A DNA stretch of 64,000 bases from the human T2T-CHM13v2.0 reference genome, Homo sapiens. The notes below the pieces were generated by a model. The model made no database searches, had not been told where the DNA came from, and was given only the letters and a program-made list of their open reading frames with translations. The DNA is taken from the NCBI RefSeq assembly GCF_009914755.1, contig NC_060941.1; one strand, 5' to 3'. The first letter of the stretch is position 1. Every line of letters begins with the position of its first letter. The position numbers and the translations under genes are program-made. This document shows positions 1-63,369 of the stretch, piece after piece.

Positions 1-4030
<4,030 letters not shown>

Positions 4031-7618: not shown

Positions 7619-12518
<4,900 letters not shown>

Positions 12519-12581
12519 TATGATGTTAGCTGGTTATTTTGCCCATTAATTGATGCAGTTTCTTCATAGCATCGATGGTCC

Positions 12582-13919
12582 TTACAATTTGGCCTGTTTT
12601 TGCAGGGACTGGTACCGCTTGTTCCTTTTCATGTTTAGTGCTTCCTTCAGGAGCTCTTGTAAGGGAGGTCTGGTGGTGACAAAATCTCTCAGCATTTGCT
12701 TGTTTGTAAAGGATTTTATTTCTCCTTCACTCATGAAGCTTAGTTTGGCTGGATGTGAAATTCTGGGTTAAAAATTCTTTTCTTTAAGAATGTTGAATAT
12801 TGGCCCCCACTCTCTTCTGGCTTGTAGGGTTTCTACTGAGAGATCCACTGCTAGTCTGATGTGCTTCCCTCTGTGGGTAACTCGACCTTTCTCTCTGGCT
12901 TCCCTTTACACTTTTTCCTTCATTTCAACCTTGGTGAATCTGACAATTATATGTCTTGGGTTTGCTCTTCTCGGGGAGTATCTTTGTGGTGTTCTCTGTA
13001 TTTCCTGAATTTGGATGTTGGCCTGCCTTGCTATATTGGGGAAGTTCTCCTGGATAATATCCTGAAGAGTGTTTTCCAACTTGGTTCCATTCTCCCCATC
13101 ACTTTCAGGTGCACCAATCAAACGTAGATTTGGTCTTTTCACATAGTCCCATATTTCTTTTTTTTTTTTTTTTGAGATGGAGTCTCGCTCTTTCACCCAG
13201 GCTGGAGTGCAGTGACGCTATCTCGGCTCACTGCAAGCTCCACTTCCTGGGTTCATGCCATTCTCCTGCCTCCGCCTCTTGAGTAGCTGAGAATACAGGC
13301 ACCTGCCACTGCGCCCAGCTAATTTTTTATATTTTTAGTAGAGACGGGGTTTCACCGTGTTAGCCAGGATGGTCTCGATCTCCTGACCTTGTGATCCACC
13401 AATCTTGGCCTCCCAAAGTGCTGGGATTACAGGCGTGAGCCACTGTGCCCGGCCATAGTCCCATATTTCTTGGAGGTTTGTTCATTTTTTTTTCACTCTT
13501 TTTTCTCTGTCCTTGGTTTCTTGCTTTATTTCATTAATTTGATCTTCAATCACAGATACCCTTTCTTCCACTTGATCGAATTGGCTATTGAAGCTTGTGC
13601 ATGTGTCATTAAGTTCTTGTGTGAGGGTTTTCAGCTCTATCAGGTCATTTAAAGTCTTCTCCACACTGTTTATTCTAGTTAGCCCTTTGTCTAATCTTTT
13701 TTCAAGGTTTCTAGCTTCCTTGTGATGGGTTCGAACATCCTCCTTTAGTTCAGAGAAGTTTGTTATTACCGACCTTCTGATGCCTACTTCTGTCAACTTG
13801 TCAAAGTCATTCTCCATCCAGCTTTGTTCCGTTGCTGGTCAGGATCTGCGATCCTTTGGAAGAGAAGAGGTGTTCTGATTTTTAGAATTTTCAGATTTTC
13901 TGTTCTGGTTTCTTCCCAT
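12582..13919 (-). pseudogene. L1 ORF1, disrupted by AluY
   Basis: MENDFDKLTEVG... and [15 protein letters not shown]... peptides; ATG complement at 13917-13919, stop complement at 12582-12584. Confidence 0.9.
13160..13454 (-). mobile_element. AluY inserted in L1 ORF1
   Basis: AluY diagnostics (caagctcc, gttagccaggatggtctcgatc); perfect 17-bp TSD atagtcccatatttctt at 13143-13159 and 13455-13471. Confidence 0.97.
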
Positions 13920-20329: not shown

Positions 20330-20344
20330 ACTTTTCTAATACAT

Positions 20345-20865
20345 ATATATATAATATACATAGTATATATTATATATATAATATACATAGTATATATTAT
20401 ATATATAATATACATAGTATATATTATATATATAATATACATAGTATATATTATATATATAATATACATAGTATATATTATATATATAATATACATAGTA
20501 TATATTATATATAATATACATAGTATATATTATATATAATATACATAGTATATATTATATATATAATATACATAGTATATATTATATATAATATACATAG
20601 TATATATTATATATATAATATACATAGTATATATTATATATATAATATACATAGTATATAATATATATAATATACATAGTACATATTTATATATAATATA
20701 CATAGTACATATTATATATATAATATACATAGTACATATTATATATAATATATATAGTATATATTATATATAGTATATATAGTATATATTATATATAATA
20801 TATATAGTATATATTATATAATATTATATATAGTATATATTTATATATATATTATATATATATAT
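20345..20865. repeat. AT-rich minisatellite (VNTR), 25-27 bp unit ATATATAATATACATAGTATATATTAT, about 19-20 copies
   Basis: Direct reading; near-identical units at the left that degenerate to the right; explains the repetitive YNIHSIYYI ORFs. Confidence 0.95.
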
Positions 20866-42740: not shown

Positions 42741-43556
42741 ACCTTGAAAGAAAATTAGACGAATGGCTAACTAGAACAACCAATGCAGAGAAGTCCTTAA
42801 AGGACCTGATGGAGCTGAAAACCAAGGCATGAGAACTACGTGACAAATGCATAAGCCTCAGTAGCCCGATTTGATCAACTGGAAGAAAGGGTATCAGTGA
42901 TGGAAGATCAAATGAATGAAATGAAGCGAGAAGAGAAGTTTAGAAAAAAAAGAATAAAAAGAAATGAACAAAGCCTCCAAGAAATATGGGACTATGTAAA
43001 AAGACCAAATCTACGTCTGATTGGTGTACCTGAAATTGACGGGGAGAAGGGAACCAAGTTGGAAAACACTCTGCAGGATATTATACAGGATAACTTCCCC
43101 AATCTAGCAAGGCAGGCCAACATTCAAATTCAGGAAATACAGAGAACGCCACAAAGATACTCCTCAAGAAGAGCAACTCCAATACACATAATTGTCAGAT
43201 TCACCAAAGTTGAAATGAAGGAAAAAATGTTAAGGGCAGCCAGAGAGAAAGGTCAGGTAACCCACAAAGGGAAGCCCATCAGACTAACAGCTGATCTCTC
43301 GGCAGAAACTCTACAAGCCAGAAGAGAGTGGGGGCCAATATTCAACATTCTTAAAGAAAAGAATTTTCAACCCAGAATTTCATATCCAGCCAAACTAAAC
43401 TTCATAAGTGAAGGAGAAATAAAATACTTTACAGACAAGCAAATGCTGAGAGATTTTGTCACCACCAGGCCTGCCCTAAAAGAGCTCCTGAAGGAAGCAC
43501 TAAACATGGAAAGAAACAACCGGTACCAGCCACTGCAAAAACATGCCAAATTGTAA
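42741..43556 (+). pseudogene. L1 ORF1, C-terminal part
   Basis: 219-aa [21 protein letters not shown]...QPLQKHAKL; N-terminus and promoter missing. Confidence 0.9.
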
Positions 43557-43619
43557 AGACCATTGAGGCTAGGAAGAAACTGCATCAACTAATGAGCAAA
43601 ATAACCAGCTAACATCATA

Positions 43620-47438
<3,819 letters not shown>

Positions 47439-56549: not shown

Positions 56550-57230
56550 TCAAATAACCATTTGAATAAATACCTATACTGGCAGACACTGTACTACTAG
56601 GTGCTGTATATCTACAGTGAACCAAACAATCTCTTTCTGCCTTCAGAGATTCAGGCTAATAGAAGAGTTAAGCAATACATATTGTCATGAAATCCATGAA
56701 CAAGCAATCTTCTATGATAGGACAATCGGAGGAGTCCCTAAAGGGTTAAAAATTAACATAAGATCTGAAAGAAGCCAAGGAATCAATCAAGCAAACAGTG
56801 AGAATGAAAGTGTTCCAAAGGAAGGAAAGAATACATTTGAGGGCAGGGAAGACTGCTGAAGATTTGCAGAACTGAAAGTCTGGTTGTTTGCCTGAACATA
56901 AGTGGAAGCTCCTAAAGGGTTTCAAGTAGGGCATTAAAACCATCCATTTTATGATTTTAAAAAATATTATTCTGACAATTATGTGAGGAAGAGATTAGAA
57001 CAGAACAAGAATGGAAGTGGTAAGAATCATTAGGAGACTAGTCCAGGAGTCCAGGCATGTGATTGAGACTAACTGGTGGAAGCACAGATGGAGAAAGGTA
57101 GAAGAATTAAAAACATATCTTATATTTTGATGTAAGCAAAATTTTGAATGCAAGCAAAATAAATTGATGAGTGGAAAAAAGGAGACATACTAGTCTTCTA
57201 AGTTGAGCAAATGATGAGATGGTGGTTTTC
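56550..57230 (-). mobile_element. L2 LINE fragment
   Basis: atttgaataaatacctatactggcagacactgtactactaggtgctg antisense 3' end followed by body. Confidence 0.6.
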
Positions 57231-57857
57231 TTTGGATCCTTTCTGGGAAAGTTTGTTACAAATATACCTAAGTAATATTAGGTATATTGGTTAACGAGGG
57301 GAGCTTAAGTCCAGGGAAAAGTCAAGAGGAAAGTTGGGACATGATAGATTTAGAGATCTGAGTAAAATTTAAAGCAGACTATACACTATTTCCCAGATGT
57401 CTTAACTTGCTTGTCTAAATGTTTAATATTTCATGGTTTCATTCATTAATTTTACCTAGACTTTGAATTGCATCTCAAGTGCTCATGAAGGAAAAGAATG
57501 GTGTGGTCCATTTGCATAATCTCTTCTTACCGTAAATATTCATAAATTGTGTGTGTGCTTCTCTCTTAGTGCTTACCTTATTCTACTGTTAATCTATAAG
57601 ATCTTTAAAGGTATAAATGTATAAAGAGCCAAGACTTACTCTTCTTGGTATCCACAATAGCAGTAGAGGCCCAGTAAACATTTGTTAAATGTATTATAAC
57701 TAAGTTAAATTTATGTCTCAAAAGAGAAAAAATATTCTAACCCTTTTTTTCTGAATAAGAAACTATGTATTTTGTTTAAAAAAAAGTACAGAGATAAGGT
57801 TCCATGAAGACAAGTGGTACATATTACTTGGAATCTTTCCCAAATGTCTCCAGTGCT

Positions 57858-58043
57858 TTGGCATTATCTCAATTCCCATATCTGCTTTAACAAAGCCAAT
57901 CTCTCTTCGGAAATATCCATCCACTAATAGATTGGTCAGCAAACAATCCAAGCTGTGAGCCAAAGTCAGCCCACTATGAGGCCAACTCTGTTTGCACCCA
58001 TTCTTTATAGCTTTTGCACTACAGTGGCAAAGTTAAGTAGTTG
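57858..58043 (+). repeat. Inverted duplication, donor copy (186 bp)
   Basis: Reverse complement of 61225-61410 with 5 substitutions and no gaps. Confidence 0.97.
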
Positions 58044-58100
58044 CAACAGAGACTGTATAACCTGTAAAGCCAAAAACCTCACTGTCTGGACTTTTATAGT
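57929..58100. mobile_element. MER58A (hAT-Charlie) DNA transposon remnant
   Basis: ggtcagcaaac...cactacagtggcaaagttaagtagttgcaacagagactgtataacctgtaaagccaaaaa...tctggacttttatag. Confidence 0.75.
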
Positions 58101-58311
58101 TCCAGACTCTCACACTAGTTGAATACTTTGAAAATCTTCAGGTTCTTTCTGGGAAGTTTGGTAAGACTATCTCTAAGCAGTATTAGATAATTGGAATCTT
58201 ACCATTTAGCACACTTTCATACAAAAAGTGACAGGTAATGGTTGGGATCAGAACAGAACAACATAAAGAGGGAATGGAATACAGAATAAGAAAACTTGCA
58301 GGGTAGGAGTT

Positions 58312-58843
58312 CCCAGCCATCCCATTACTGGGTATATACCCAAAGGATTATAAAACATGCTGCTATAAAGACACATGCACACGTATGTTTATTGCAGCAC
58401 TATTCACAATAGCAAAGACTTGGAACCAACCCAAATGTCCAACAATGATAGACTGGATTAAGAAAGTGTGGCACATATACACCAAGGAATACTATGCAGC
58501 CATAAAAAATGATGAGTTCATGTCCTTTGTAGGGACATGGCTGAAGCTGGAAACCATCATTCTCAGCAAACTGTCGCAAGGACAAAAAACCAAACGCCGC
58601 ATGTTCTCACTCATAGGTGGGAATTGAACAATGAGAACACATGGACACAGGAAGGGGAACATCACACACCAGGGCCTGTTGTGGGGTGGGGGGAGGGGGG
58701 AGGGATAGCATTAGGAGATATACCTATAAATGACGAGTTAATGGGTACAGCACACCAACATGGCACATGTATACATATGCAACTAACCTGCACGTTGTGC
58801 ACATGTACCCTAAAACTTAAAGTATAATTAAAAAAAAAAAAAA
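58312..58843 (+). mobile_element. 5'-truncated L1PA (PA3-5-like) 3' end
   Basis: ORF2 C-terminus ...FSLIGGN, G-rich 3'UTR, A tail; no TSD found. Confidence 0.93.
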
Positions 58844-61224
58844 CATAACGCTAAGAAGCCTTAAAAAAAAAAAAGAATCAATAACATAATTCAAAACAGA
58901 GTTGCTCAGATCAATACAACCTAGTGGAGTCATTAAATTTGTTTTTGGGTTCCTACTTCCCTACTCCACTGTTTTCTTTGAGGCCATCTCCCCAATTCTT
59001 CCCCCACCCCATTTTAAAGAGCTGTTTTCATGTTCTTAAAGGCTCATTTCAAATGCTATCTGCCTGTGAAGCCCTTTTTAATTTATCCACTCAACAAAAC
59101 TAGGTATGATAACCCATACTTGGATTCCTAGAGCATTTTGTTTGTGGAATTTACTGTGTAATGCTTATTTATTCTTCCAAGTAGATTATAAACTCTTTGA
59201 AGAGAGGTATTGCCCCTAGCATTGAAGTAGTTTAACTGAAATTAATTTATATAAGATATGAATCCACCACAATTGCCTGACAAGAATTTAGAATATGTGT
59301 ATGTTGAGAGACTGAATATACAAATGGACAATGACTGAACCACATATAACAACAGACCCACAACATCTTCAGCAACCAGCCCAGGAATAGCCTTTAACTT
59401 GAAACAGCCTCTGTTTTCATTTTCACTGCAGCCGTCTGTCTTCTACTGAAACCACGTGGCTGGTTTGATTCTGCTATTGAATCTTAGTAGAACTACTAGG
59501 CTTAGGATTGACAGGCACAGGTTTCAAAACAGTGTGCCTTGAAGACCAACTAGGAACTTTAGCAGAGCAAGGGAAGTCAAAATTTACCAGTTGTTGTACC
59601 ACAGCAAGGTACAATCCAAGAATAATGGTTTAAACCTGCCCCTGGGCTCTCCCTCATTTCAGCATACTTACTTCTTTGTCAACACTATGGATTTAGACTT
59701 CCCTTTTGCTCAAGAACACTCATCCTGTCATGCACGGCCTTGCTCAGATTTGTCATATCTGACACTTTGATTTAATGTCTGACTATGGCTCAACTCTGAC
59801 TTTGTTTCATGTCATGAATGAGATTTTAGTGCTGCTCTAAAGTCCTTCTGTTACTAACCGGGACTCAAACCCAGAGATCAGATATGCCTCCCCAGTCTCA
59901 GCATGACCTGTCTTTGTGATCCAGTCTTCACATCCATATTCTGAAGACTGAGACAAGGCAAGGACCAGCAGGCATTGAGTTAACAAAAGCAGAGCAGGCA
60001 TATACACTCCGGATCAAAGAATCAAAGTTGGAGAGAACAGCAAACAGCAGAATTCAAATGGCCAGGAAAATACAGAAGAAGCTGCCCTGTACCCATAAAA
60101 GTAGAATAAGCTGCTGATTCATTTGGGGCCTTTGCTGTCTCAGTTTCACATAATTACATCCTCCTGCATCAATCCAATGGCCCATCAGGGAAAAGGTGTT
60201 GTAACTTACTAAAATAAGAGAATTGTTCAAGGTCCCTGTGAGAAGCTAACTGGATTGTGAAACATAAATCAGGGTTCTATTGTAATAATAGATAAACAAT
60301 CTCAAAATTATTTCAGAAGCAACATGTCACATGGGGAAGCCATCACTACTGTCATGTTTGAGGTGTGTATACCCTATCAATCATTTTAATGACATTTTAC
60401 CTCTGCATGGATAGGTAAAGCATGATTAGCCTGCTGAGTTCAGTAGCAGAACCAGCCTAGGGGAAGGAAAAATGTCAAAAAGTAGAGTTACCTTGATAGA
60501 GTCATCTTAAATAACAGGCCAAGAATGCCAGTATTCTCATTTTCCCACATCTTTATTTATTTGGTTTTAGGCTTTATCAAACAATGTATATGTGGGAGGT
60601 ATGGGTGGTTCAGGAGTACATGGGGTGCTTAACCTCTTTACCCTTGAACAATTGAAAATCATCAACATAATATCAAAATACAGATACAATATGGAGATAT
60701 TTTAAAATAGTATTTACTCTGTTGATATGTAGCTTCTAAATCCAGCCAGAGGCTATCATAATAAACAAGTAACACATTCTATCACCTTTAGGAGCCATAA
60801 GTCTGAAAATATATAGGGAAACCTACAAACAGTAAATAATACAAGTTCATATGCTTCCAGTAGTAGAAAGACTGAATGCCTTAGGAAAATGATAGTGCAA
60901 TGTGTGTGTTGATATATAAGCTAGGTTCCTATAATAATTTATCCAAAGTGAACTCATTGATTGAGAGGACTTCAAGCCATACCAAGGAAATACAGAGTTT
61001 TTAAAAGAACACAATTTTTGATTAAGCCAGTTATACTTGGATTATGCTCAAGATGCAGAATATGCTTTCTTTGGTGGGTAGTATGTGACTTGAACAGTAT
61101 GGGAGATCGTCATTACCACACATCATCCTTTCTGCTGCTCTTGACAAAAGGTTTAAAGTTTTACATTCCCTATTAAGTCATTTGTACCTTCAAGAGGGTT
61201 CTACTAAATATATAGACATATGTA

Positions 61225-61410
61225 CAACTACTTAACTTTGCCACTGTAGTGTAAAAGCTATAAAGAACGGGTGCAAACAGAGTTGGCCTCATAGTTGGCT
61301 GACTTTGGCTCACAGCTTGGATTGTTTGCTGACCCATCTATTAGTGGATGGATATTTCCGAAGAGAGATTGGCTTTGTTAAAGAAGATATGGGAATTGAG
61401 ATAATGCCAA
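61225..61410 (-). repeat. Inverted duplication, inserted copy (186 bp)
   Basis: Reverse complement of 57858-58043; followed by a fold-back junction at 61411-61441. Confidence 0.97.
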
Positions 61411-63369
61411 TTATCTCAATTATCTCAATTGAGATAATGCCTAATTTATAATATCGTTTTGAGGACTGATCCTAAAAAATAAAAGTAGAAATGTAAGAAA
61501 ACAAAACAAAATAAACCAAAAACTTTATGATAAAAATATATTAATTAGATTTTTAAAATAATAATGAAAATTGGAGCAATAAAATGTTGTTTTCAGAAGT
61601 TAGTTTTTAAATTATGTTCACATAATGAACTCTTGTGAATCCATTAAAGTATTTTTGAAGACCATTTAATCACAAGATAAAACCCTTCATATAAACTTAA
61701 ATGGAAAAGGAATATTCAAAAATAATATGCAGGATGATCACAACGTATGAAGTATATATGTTTTATATCCTAGTGTGTGTAGTAAAAGAGCTGAAAGCAA
61801 TGACACATAAATGATTATCTTGCTGCAGAGAGATTATAGATAATATAATTTTCTTCATTATTTTATGGATATTCCAATTTTTATAATAAGCATACATTAC
61901 TTTCATATTTTAAAAGAATAGTAATTACACTTAAATAATACTTAAATGAGAATATATATATATATTCTTTCACCCCAGGAAGGGATTATGCCTCTAGCTG
62001 TTATTAATTAACACTTTAGAAACTAGCTAAGCATAGGGACAGGAGGATGGCATAAAGAAAGTGAAGTGAATGTATGGAGGATTCAATTCAATTAAAAAAA
62101 TAGTCCGTCACAAGTTTATAATGTTTTGCCTTTTATAAAGTGCTTTCACATACTTTATTCCATGAAGACTGTCTCAACTTTCTAGTGCACACACACATCC
62201 ACACAGGCAGACACAAAAGATATTATTAGTCATTTTAAGTGCCTAGAAGGACACATCTACCCTATTGCCCCCAAACTGAGCTGTTATAACCAGGTAAATA
62301 GCTTTCAGTGAAAAGTAACATCCATAAAAGACAATCAATGGTGGCATATTATTCTTGTTCACTCTGCTGTCTTTGGTTGCTACATGTCTCCTTGGCTCTC
62401 TATTAGAGACCAAGCTTGCCCGCTTGGAATGCCAAGCAGTATCCACATGGCTGAAGGTAACACCTTCCTTGCCTTGCTTTCAAAGTCCCACCCATAGCTG
62501 AATACATCTCCCTTATCTTGCTTTCCCTTTAATGAAAGAGCAACGTTATTACATGCTTGGATTCACCAGTGAAGGACCTGGTCCATGTTGAATGAGTGTT
62601 TTCCATGCCTACACATAAACAGGTCAGAAAAGTCTAGATCTGGATGTATAGCTTACTATATCATCACACTAGCAAAGCACCAGCTTCTGATTTCCTTTTC
62701 TTGGCTACATGCTGGAGGCCTGGTCCTGGGCCAACGACAGCTGTGCATCAATTATCACAAAGAGAGCAAGACCTTGGGGAAAGCCTGATGATTTAACGAG
62801 TGCTCAGCTGGGACTTTTTCACTTGATGTGTATCTTAGTACTGCATAGCAACTCCCTTTTAGTTCAAAACAATACATCTCCTTTAGTTTATCGGGTGATT
62901 GGCGTAATTATGAAGAAGAACAAAGATCAAATACTGTGTCCAGAAGCAGAGGGACTAGACCACATGGTAAGGCAGCAGCTAGGGAGAATGATGGAAAAGT
63001 ATCCCCTGCTTCTGAATAGCAATCCTTCTAAAAAACACCAATGAATAAATAAAAATCAGGATAGGTGACATACCTTGTTTTAAAGAGTAAGGAATCACCG
63101 TCGAGAGTGGTAAAATAACTTGCCCTAATCTACACACTTGAAGAGATATAACTACTACTTAAATAGTTTGATACTGAGTTCTAAGCTTATTTAAGTCACC
63201 TCCGTTCAGCAAAACTGTTGTATATCATCTATTAAACGTCCACTGTGAACAAGACTCTGTGTGTGTGCACATGCATGTGTGTGGGGGAGAGTAGATGCAC
63301 AGTAATAAAAAAAAGAGCTCTTTTTTTTGTGTCTTATAATGATATACATAAAACGTAATAAACATTACT

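What the first reader, a model, noticed from the sequence alone, without database searches (positions are those of the whole stretch)
61394..61441. Junction of the inverted copy records three successive template switches
Seen: the copy ends AATTGAGATAATGCCA, folds back to ATTATCTCAATT (hairpin 61394-61421, loop gcca), repeats ATCTCAATT, then reverses again to GAGATAATGCC, creating the perfect 20-bp palindrome ATTATCTCAATTGAGATAAT (61419-61438). All of the junction derives from the end of the duplicated unit, with AATT as the pivot. Established: iterative microhomology-primed synthesis of this kind is the signature of polymerase-theta end joining or MMBIR/FoSTeS. It also places four GATA cores (AGATAA/TTATCT) within 45 bp, a possible de novo GATA-binding cluster (inference).
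Basis: partly seen in the sequence, partly recalled or inferred. Interest (0 to 1): 0.7.

Follow-up and report, generated by a model that had tools for sequence, protein, structure and literature searches.

The report
DNA-repair scar from repeated template switching
A 186-base stretch of human chromosome 17 is copied backwards 3 kb away and ends in 31 extra bases made only of repeats of 15 bases from its own end, likely the neutral scar of an old, stuttering DNA-break repair of a kind already catalogued by the hundreds.

Summary
61225-61410 is an inverted 181/186 copy of 57858-58043, found at only these two places in the genome. A repeat fragment cut short in the copy shows that 57858-58043 is the donor. 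The 31-nt filler 61411-61441 comes entirely from 15 donor bases and needs at least three template switches (overlaps 1, 3, 4 nt), or four with overlaps of at least 3 nt. This is far beyond chance. Corrections: the number and direction of switches are not fixed by the sequence; the middle switch cannot be told from a later 9-nt slippage; AATT pivots only one of the three; and the signature is not specific to Pol theta or MMBIR. The whole fits the known class of proximal repair-mediated duplications with filler (Pace 2009), though it is not in their table. The four GATA cores are real, but follow from copying one donor site four times; nothing here shows function. No outgroup was available, so the empty site is untested. 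New member of a known kind; interest low.

The parts
57858..58043 (+). Donor segment (186 bp): unique sequence plus the first part of an interspersed-repeat fragment
   Evidence: 181/186 identical to the reverse complement of 61225-61410; only two places in the genome
58010..58099 (+). Interspersed-repeat fragment that runs through the donor's end; its truncation in the copy gives the direction of copying. It looks like a MER58-type hAT transposon end (name recalled, from no call)
   Evidence: 38 other genomic matches among the 40 listed; 18 of 18 fetched copies align across 58043 in the donor; none continues more than 16 nt past 61225 in the acceptor
57860..57874 (+). The 15 donor bases from which the whole filler is templated; holds the donor's single WGATAR core (57864)
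   Evidence: maximal exact matches
61225..61410 (-). Acceptor: inverted copy of the donor, 3,181 nt away, 5 substitutions, no indels
61410..61421 (+). Filler piece 1: 12 nt equal to donor plus strand 57863-57874; 3' arm of the hairpin 61394-61421; overlap with the copy 1 nt
61419..61430 (+). Filler piece 2: the same 12-mer again (9 new nt, overlap 3 nt); part of a period-9 repeat spanning 61408-61430
61427..61441 (-). Filler piece 3: 15 nt equal to donor minus strand 57874-57860 (overlap 4 nt, AATT); direct repeat of 61394-61408; completes the 20-bp palindrome 61419-61438
61399..61437 (.). Four WGATAA cores (tail-to-tail, tandem and head-to-head pairs) with one CANNTG box at 61426-61431; by-product of the repeats, function untested
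61205..61224 (.). Left flank at the outer breakpoint; no filler identifiable, no target-site duplication; weak, non-significant likeness to the donor's continuation
   Evidence: (123 of 1,500 random 20-mers score as well)
61442..61461 (.). Right flank at the outer breakpoint; AT-rich, single-copy, no poly(A)

Best explanation
This is a 217-nt insertion made of an inverted 186-nt copy of DNA 3.2 kb away plus 31 nt of filler repeated from the copy's own end, likely left by one imperfect repair of a germline double-strand break and likely without function. Shown: donor and copy, direction of copying, templated origin of every filler base, minimum of three switches, no target-site duplication or poly(A). 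[quoted passage not shown] The short rounds work like polymerase-theta templated insertion, the single most likely enzyme (about even odds against Pol delta/zeta or NHEJ polymerases); the long tract is better matched by strand invasion. Age: 2.7% divergence (95% interval 0.9-6.3%) suggests an origin in apes, probably before the human-chimpanzee split (inference).
For: Size 186 bp, distance 3.2 kb, single donor, no TSD or poly(A), filler 31 nt: inside the ranges of the 824 proximal repair duplications (mean 162 bp, within 5 kb, filler 1-68 nt); 6 of the 28 chr17 proximal rows of that table have filler of 31 nt or more. Filler bases 61409-61410 continue the donor two bases further than the second direct repeat does, so a donor-templated history needs 3 switches while a history using only a simple post-insertion allele needs 4. 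Overlaps of 3 and 4 nt have chance about 0.02 and 0.005 each. Overlapping multi-round inserts templated from one side, primed by as little as one base, are described for Pol theta in C. elegans (16 of 17 complex cases one-sided); mammalian TINS have rounds rarely over 10 bp, include inverse repeats, and longer ones involve several rounds. Human break insertions of median 120 bp from nearby donors begin by microhomology invasion and end by end joining.
Against: No outgroup sequence was available, so the break, any deletion and the outer microhomologies are unseen. The minimum parse needs a 1-nt primer. The 9-nt repeat may be younger than the rest. A 186-nt tract from 3.2 kb away is not a typical Pol theta product (distal templates under 0.1% of repair). 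Filler AT content (72%) is above the window (64%) but not clearly above the flanks (68% and 81%). Pol-theta-free routes give similar junctions. Neutrality is inferred from lack of annotation, not tested.
Confidence: 0.65

Rival explanations
1. Two switches plus later slippage: the repair event made only the out-and-back inversion (direct-inverted-direct), and the 9-nt unit between two CAATT pentamers was duplicated later by ordinary replication slippage.
For: The period-9 repeat spans 61408-61430 with 5 nt of terminal identity; discounting one unit leaves a two-switch parse with overlaps 1 and 4.
Against: Needs a second independent mutation within 30 bp of the first; one repair tract that stutters explains both. 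No substitutions in the filler to separate ages (expected even if coeval, P=0.66).
Confidence: 0.2
2. Replication-fork template switching (FoSTeS/MMBIR) without a two-ended break: the fork jumped 3 kb to the opposite strand, stuttered, and returned.
For: Iterative switches with short microhomology and templated inserts are read as FoSTeS/MMBIR in human rearrangements; inversion is natural for a leading/lagging switch.
Against: No larger copy-number change accompanies it: both flanks are single-copy at the breakpoints. The last switch returns to a point behind the first, which requires the new strand to be free of its template. The two models are not cleanly separable from sequence.
Confidence: 0.08
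3. Clean insertion first, then a separate short-range four-point template switch that built the repeats from the finished allele.
For: [quoted passage not shown]
Against: With only the simple allele as template, 4 switches are needed (5 if every overlap is 2 nt or more), against 3 (4) with the donor. No chr17 row beginning 541 or 542 in the published event table (the GRCh38 position near 54.19 Mb is my recalled estimate).
Confidence: 0.04
4. Capture of a free DNA fragment by end joining, the palindrome arising from a hairpin-sealed end opened off-centre.
For: A loop-free perfect palindrome is what hairpin opening leaves (own knowledge); capture of free fragments at breaks is a recognised route.
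Against: Explains one of three switches only; does not explain why the donor lies 3 kb away, nor the tandem unit and the 12-bp hairpin.
Confidence: 0.02
5. Function rival, independent of origin: the scar became a GATA-bound regulatory element.
For: Four WGATAA cores in 39 bp; only 2 such four-site clusters in 258.5 kb examined, the other a simple GATA-type repeat. Tandem and head-to-head pairs are configurations GATA1 binds bivalently. On the minus strand a CANNTG box lies 9 bp before core 2, inside the 7-12 bp range for E-box-GATA composites.
Against: The cluster is the automatic result of copying one site four times. GATA1/2 occupy 0.1-1% of about 7 million motifs. The box is CAATTG, not the preferred CAGGTG/CAGATG/CATCTG, and the optimal spacer is 8 bp. 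No gene within 100 kb and no RefSeq functional element (hub annotation). A literature search on this interval listed nothing about the site (listing only).
Confidence: 0.05

Closest known systems
Proximal repair-mediated duplications (Pace et al. 2009, PMC2671141); related to the 'doublets' of Thomas et al. as cited there
   Same: 50-619 bp copy of a single donor within 5 kb, no poly(A), filler of 1-68 nt at a breakpoint, primate age
   Different: Acceptor does not interrupt a recognisable transposon, so their pipeline would not have seen it; it is not among the 28 proximal chr17 rows of Table S1. In the parts I read they did not parse fillers into templated rounds.
Polymerase-theta templated insertions (TINS; PMC7165422, PMC5068794) and SD-MMEJ (PMC5728401)
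   Same: Several short rounds (9-11 nt) of direct and inverse repeats from within 30 bp, one-sided template, primers of 1-4 nt
   Different: Here the template is the end of a captured 186-bp copy rather than the original break flank; Pol theta dependence cannot be read from sequence.
Templated insertions at induced human breaks (Min et al., bioRxiv 10.1101/2022.09.30.509517) and class 2 TSIPs (PMC5110952)
   Same: Insert of about 100-200 bp, donor left intact, no TSD or poly(A), end-joining features
   Different: Those are somatic/experimental or polymorphic and often from distant donors; this one is old (5 substitutions) and local.
Short-range four-point template switches (PMC5453318, PMC7954356)
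   Same: Direct-inverted-direct pattern with the return point behind the exit point
   Different: One out-and-back switch on an existing allele cannot produce this junction; it needs donor bases and at least one more switch.
FoSTeS/MMBIR junctions of complex rearrangements (PMC5120786)
   Same: Iterative switches, short microhomology, short templated inserts from nearby sequence
   Different: No large duplication, triplication or deletion seen here.

Membership tests
Proximal repair-mediated duplication | Insertion of 50 bp or more with one donor copy elsewhere in the genome | tested here: met
   186 bp; 2 matches in the genome for the 701-nt query, self and donor
Proximal repair-mediated duplication | Donor within 5 kb and more than 50 bp away (not tandem) | tested here: met
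   3,181 nt between arms
Proximal repair-mediated duplication | Donor and acceptor distinguishable, donor intact | tested here: met
   Repeat fragment continuous across 58043 in 18 of 18 fetched family copies, truncated in the acceptor
Proximal repair-mediated duplication | No poly(A/T) tail; breakpoints with filler, deletion or microhomology | tested here: met
   No tail, no TSD of 4 nt or more within 6 nt of either end; 31-nt filler
Proximal repair-mediated duplication | Empty orthologous site in an outgroup | not testable with these tools
   No related genome held; flanks have no paralogue spanning the site
Polymerase-theta TINS | Inserted runs of 5 nt or more that are direct or inverse repeats of DNA within about 30 bp | tested here: met
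   12, 12 and 15 nt matches, all within the last 17 nt of the copy; definition
Polymerase-theta TINS | Rounds of synthesis short, rarely over 10 nt; longer inserts made of several rounds | tested here: met
   Extensions 11, 9, 11 or 2, 9, 9, 11 nt; two rounds exceed 10 by one base
Polymerase-theta TINS | Template is the local break flank | tested here: not met
   The main 186-nt tract comes from 3.2 kb away; only the filler is local, and to the copy. The insertion as a whole is therefore not filed as a TINS; the filler works like one.
Polymerase-theta TINS | Insert more AT-rich than its surroundings | tested here: inconclusive
   72% against 68% (left 100 nt), 81% (right 100 nt), 64% (window)
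Polymerase-theta TINS | Genetic dependence on POLQ | not testable with these tools
   Ancient fixed or near-fixed event; needs a reconstruction assay
SD-MMEJ-consistent junction | Final templated run creates microhomology with the other break end | not testable with these tools
   Needs the ancestral right flank; criteria read
FoSTeS/MMBIR | Iterative template switches with short microhomology | tested here: met
FoSTeS/MMBIR | Associated larger copy-number gains or losses | tested here: not met
   Breakpoint flanks single-copy, one 186-bp duplicate only; an ancestral deletion cannot be seen without an outgroup
Four-point short-range template switch | One reverse fragment between two forward fragments of the same ancestral allele | tested here: not met
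   Needs 4 switches on a simple allele
L1-mediated insertion (class 1 TSIP) | Target-site duplication and poly(A) tail | tested here: not met
   definition
E-box-GATA composite enhancer | CANNTG 7-12 bp upstream of WGATAR | tested here: met
   Minus strand: box 61426-61431, 9 bp, core 61411-61416; box sequence non-preferred
E-box-GATA composite enhancer | Occupancy and enhancer activity in cells | not testable with these tools
   No chromatin data on hand; RefSeq lists no functional element in the window

The most novel reading that the evidence does not exclude
[quoted passage not shown] It would show repair filler, not point mutation or transposons, as a source of new homotypic binding-site clusters.
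Probability: 0.04. Interest if true: 0.6.

Novelty: new member of a known kind. Interest (0 to 1): 0.2.

Why it matters
As it stands it is a clean, well-preserved teaching example of a germline repair scar: a long captured tract and short stuttering rounds side by side, consistent with a hand-over from strand invasion to microhomology end joining. It would matter more as one item in a survey: parsing the fillers of the published 824 proximal repair duplications in the same way would test whether germline repair duplications are generally finished by theta-like rounds. It would matter much more only if the GATA cluster proved active, for which there is no evidence.

Tried and rejected
Empty-site reconstruction from paralogues: the right flank has 1 match (itself); the left flank has 2 paralogues at about 72% identity that cover only 60534-60907 and do not reach the breakpoint. 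Homeology at the left breakpoint: 6 of 14 family alignments ran about 15 nt past 61225, but the anchored alignment score is reached by 123 of 1,500 random 20-mers (p 0.08) and the right side shows nothing (p 0.80); not accepted. Error-prone copying: 3 of 5 differences are transversions, not significant (P 0.21). Polarising substitutions: 14 of 18 family copies carry the donor base at 58016 and 2 of 2 at 58000, weakly placing both changes in the copy. RNA gene: no Rfam match at gathering score in 57000-62500. Retrotransposition: no TSD, no tail. Assembly artefact: 5 substitutions separate the copies, so not a mis-duplicated read; read support not checkable. Listing in print: not in Pace Table S1 (all 74 chr17 places read), not in the great-ape template-switch table by my estimated GRCh38 position; that paper's S1 Data file was too large to read and preprint supplements were not seen. 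One paper search returned nothing. The bottom-strand enumeration ran past a substitution and was redone. The greedy tiling started at 61409 and gave 4 pieces for both template sets; the exhaustive parses are the ones used.

Full report
Observation. The stretch 61225-61410 is an ungapped inverted copy of 57858-58043, 181 of 186 identical, with 3,181 nt between the arms. A genome-wide search with 61000-61700 gave 2 matches: itself and the donor. After the copy come 31 nt (61411-61441) before unique flank resumes. Maximal exact matching shows these are three overlapping pieces of donor 57860-57874: a 12-mer on the plus strand (61410-61421), the same 12-mer again (61419-61430), and a 15-mer on the minus strand (61427-61441). 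They create a 12-bp hairpin with a GCCA loop (z -5.8, 0 of 200 shuffles), a period-9 repeat over 61408-61430, a perfect 20-bp palindrome (61419-61438) and four WGATAA cores in 39 bp.

Chance. Of 14 perfect palindromes of 20 bp or more in the window, 12 are TA or A/T runs; the other two are this one and one at 295-322. A palindrome or hairpin of this size alone is expected about 0.15 and 0.25 times per 64 kb (3 and 5 in 1.28 Mb simulated). The compound pattern is not chance: four copies of a 9-mer in both orientations within 60 nt were found once in the window, twice in 194.5 kb of neighbouring DNA (both in one TA-rich minisatellite) and never in 1.5 Mb of simulated sequence. With three copies the counts were 5 in the neighbours (3 in that minisatellite) and 3 in the simulation. 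Tiling 31 nt from the preceding 20 nt took 3 pieces here; 41 of 9,072 sampled positions took 4 or fewer, 40 of them in the TA minisatellite and one inside this junction.

Which copy is new. The donor's end lies inside an interspersed repeat fragment (58010-58099) with 38 other matches among the 40 listed. All 18 other copies that were fetched align across 58043 in the donor. Against the acceptor, 14 of 18 aligned: 7 stop at 61225, 1 at 61232 and 6 run about 15 nt further; none goes on to the rest of the element. So 57858-58043 is the donor and 61225-61441 is a 217-nt insertion. The element looks like a MER58-type transposon end; that name is recalled, not from a call. There is no target-site duplication of 4 nt or more and no poly(A) tail. 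Five differences give 2.7% divergence (95% interval 0.9-6.3%); published human-specific and chimpanzee-specific repair duplications average 0.89% and 1.34%, so an origin before the human-chimpanzee split is more likely than not. This is inference.

How many switches. Exhaustive enumeration with both donor strands as templates gives no parse with two switches, exactly one with three (overlaps 1, 3, 4 nt; extensions 11, 9, 11), and exactly one four-switch parse in which every overlap is at least 3 nt. The mirror result holds for synthesis in the opposite direction, so the order of events is not determined. In left-to-right synthesis the first two switches can be fold-backs on the new strand, in right-to-left synthesis only the middle one; in neither direction can the AATT switch be a fold-back, because a perfect palindrome leaves no loop. 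That switch needs the other donor strand or a second copy. The middle switch sits in a 9-nt tandem repeat bounded by CAATT and could be ordinary slippage of any date; without one unit two switches remain. If the repeats had been built later from a simple finished allele, four switches would be needed, because bases 61409-61410 continue the donor and are absent from such an allele. This ties most of the junction to the moment of copying. Entry to and exit from the target add two more joins whose microhomology cannot be seen without the empty site; the slight likeness of the left flank to the donor's continuation is not significant.

Mechanism. The best reading is one imperfect repair of a germline double-strand break: one end copied 186 nt from a nearby template, and at one side the free 3' end went through several short anneal-extend-release rounds before the join was completed. 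The short rounds work like polymerase-theta templated insertion: rounds rarely over 10 nt, direct and inverse repeats from within 30 bp, several rounds in longer inserts (PMC7165422, passages); overlapping one-sided inserts primed by a single base (PMC5068794, passages). The long tract does not: distal templates were under 0.1% of repair in the first of those studies. Inserts of median 120 bp at induced human breaks were proposed to start by microhomology invasion and finish by end joining (bioRxiv 10.1101/2022.09.30.509517, abstract and passages). [quoted passage not shown] The pathway cannot be named from the sequence.

Known class. Pace et al. 2009 (PMC2671141; parts 1-5 of 8 of the text) found 824 human duplications with a single donor within 5 kb, mean 162 bp, no poly(A), and filler of 1-68 nt in the sampled breakpoints. 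This locus meets every feature that could be tested. It is not among the 28 proximal chr17 rows of their Table S1 (all 74 chr17 places read), as expected since they looked only inside transposons and the flanks here match no repeat family at the breakpoint. Six of those 28 rows have filler of 31 nt or more, so the filler length is ordinary. Their density of 0.62 per Mb of transposon DNA fits finding this one and one further candidate in 258 kb. Class 2 TSIPs are similar but from distant donors (PMC5110952, passages). I found no description of this locus in the two tables searched or the listing; supplements not readable here could hold it.

GATA idea. The donor has one core (57864); the copy and three filler pieces make four. 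In 258.5 kb there were 828 WGATAR sites and two clusters of four within 45 nt, this one and a simple repeat. The pairs include tandem and head-to-head arrangements that GATA1 can bind bivalently, and a CANNTG box lies 9 bp before core 2 on the minus strand, within the 7-12 bp range of E-box-GATA composites (PMC5220053, passages). Against function: the box is a non-preferred one and 8 bp is the optimal spacer; GATA1 and GATA2 occupy only 0.1-1% of about 7 million motifs (PMC3401466, passages); the hub's annotation lists no gene within 100 kb and no functional element. Naked-DNA binding is likely and would prove little. I put activity in cells at about 5%.

Verdict. Real, correctly described, far beyond chance, and explained by known biology: a proximal repair-mediated duplication with a multi-round templated filler. 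A second scar of similar type lies at 271-329 in the same window, which suggests such junctions are not rare. What remains open is the empty site, the age, whether the 9-nt repeat is coeval, and the enzyme. Novelty: new member of a known kind. Interest 0.2.

Noticed in passing
window 271-329: Second templated-looking scar: perfect 28-bp palindrome 295-322, a 10-nt direct repeat (280-289, 320-329) and a 7-8 nt unit present four times in both orientations. It interrupts an old interspersed repeat: other family copies match 211-272 or 313-413 and none of the 39 other listed matches spans the roughly 40 nt between. The palindrome keeps several CpG, which may mean it is young; worth checking for polymorphism.
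   Followed up: partly
L042:1967-2007 (about 52 kb past the window's end): A 10-mer present twice in tandem and once inverted within 41 nt, similar in form to a short templated scar.
   Followed up: no
about 35 kb past the window's end (window-relative 98944-99009 and 100131-100196, loci L041): A 66-bp direct duplicate, 95% identical, 1.1 kb apart, with no other match in the 258 kb compared; a possible second proximal repair duplication.
   Followed up: no
window 60534-60907: Unmasked 374-bp stretch with two paralogues at about 72% identity on contigs C12 (8.2 Mb) and C8 (7.05 Mb); probably an old low-copy repeat.
   Followed up: partly
window 9372-13159 and 42979-46819: Two long repeat copies, about 90% alike, in inverted orientation 30-37 kb apart; both lie in masked stretches and look like L1 elements (family name from own knowledge).
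   Followed up: no
window 20344-20865: AT-rich minisatellite, 27-nt unit, about 20 copies, holding most of the window's perfect palindromes.
   Followed up: no
window 61408-61422: The filler also creates two copies of a homeodomain-type core (61408, 61417, consensus recalled); same caveat as for the GATA cores.
   Followed up: no
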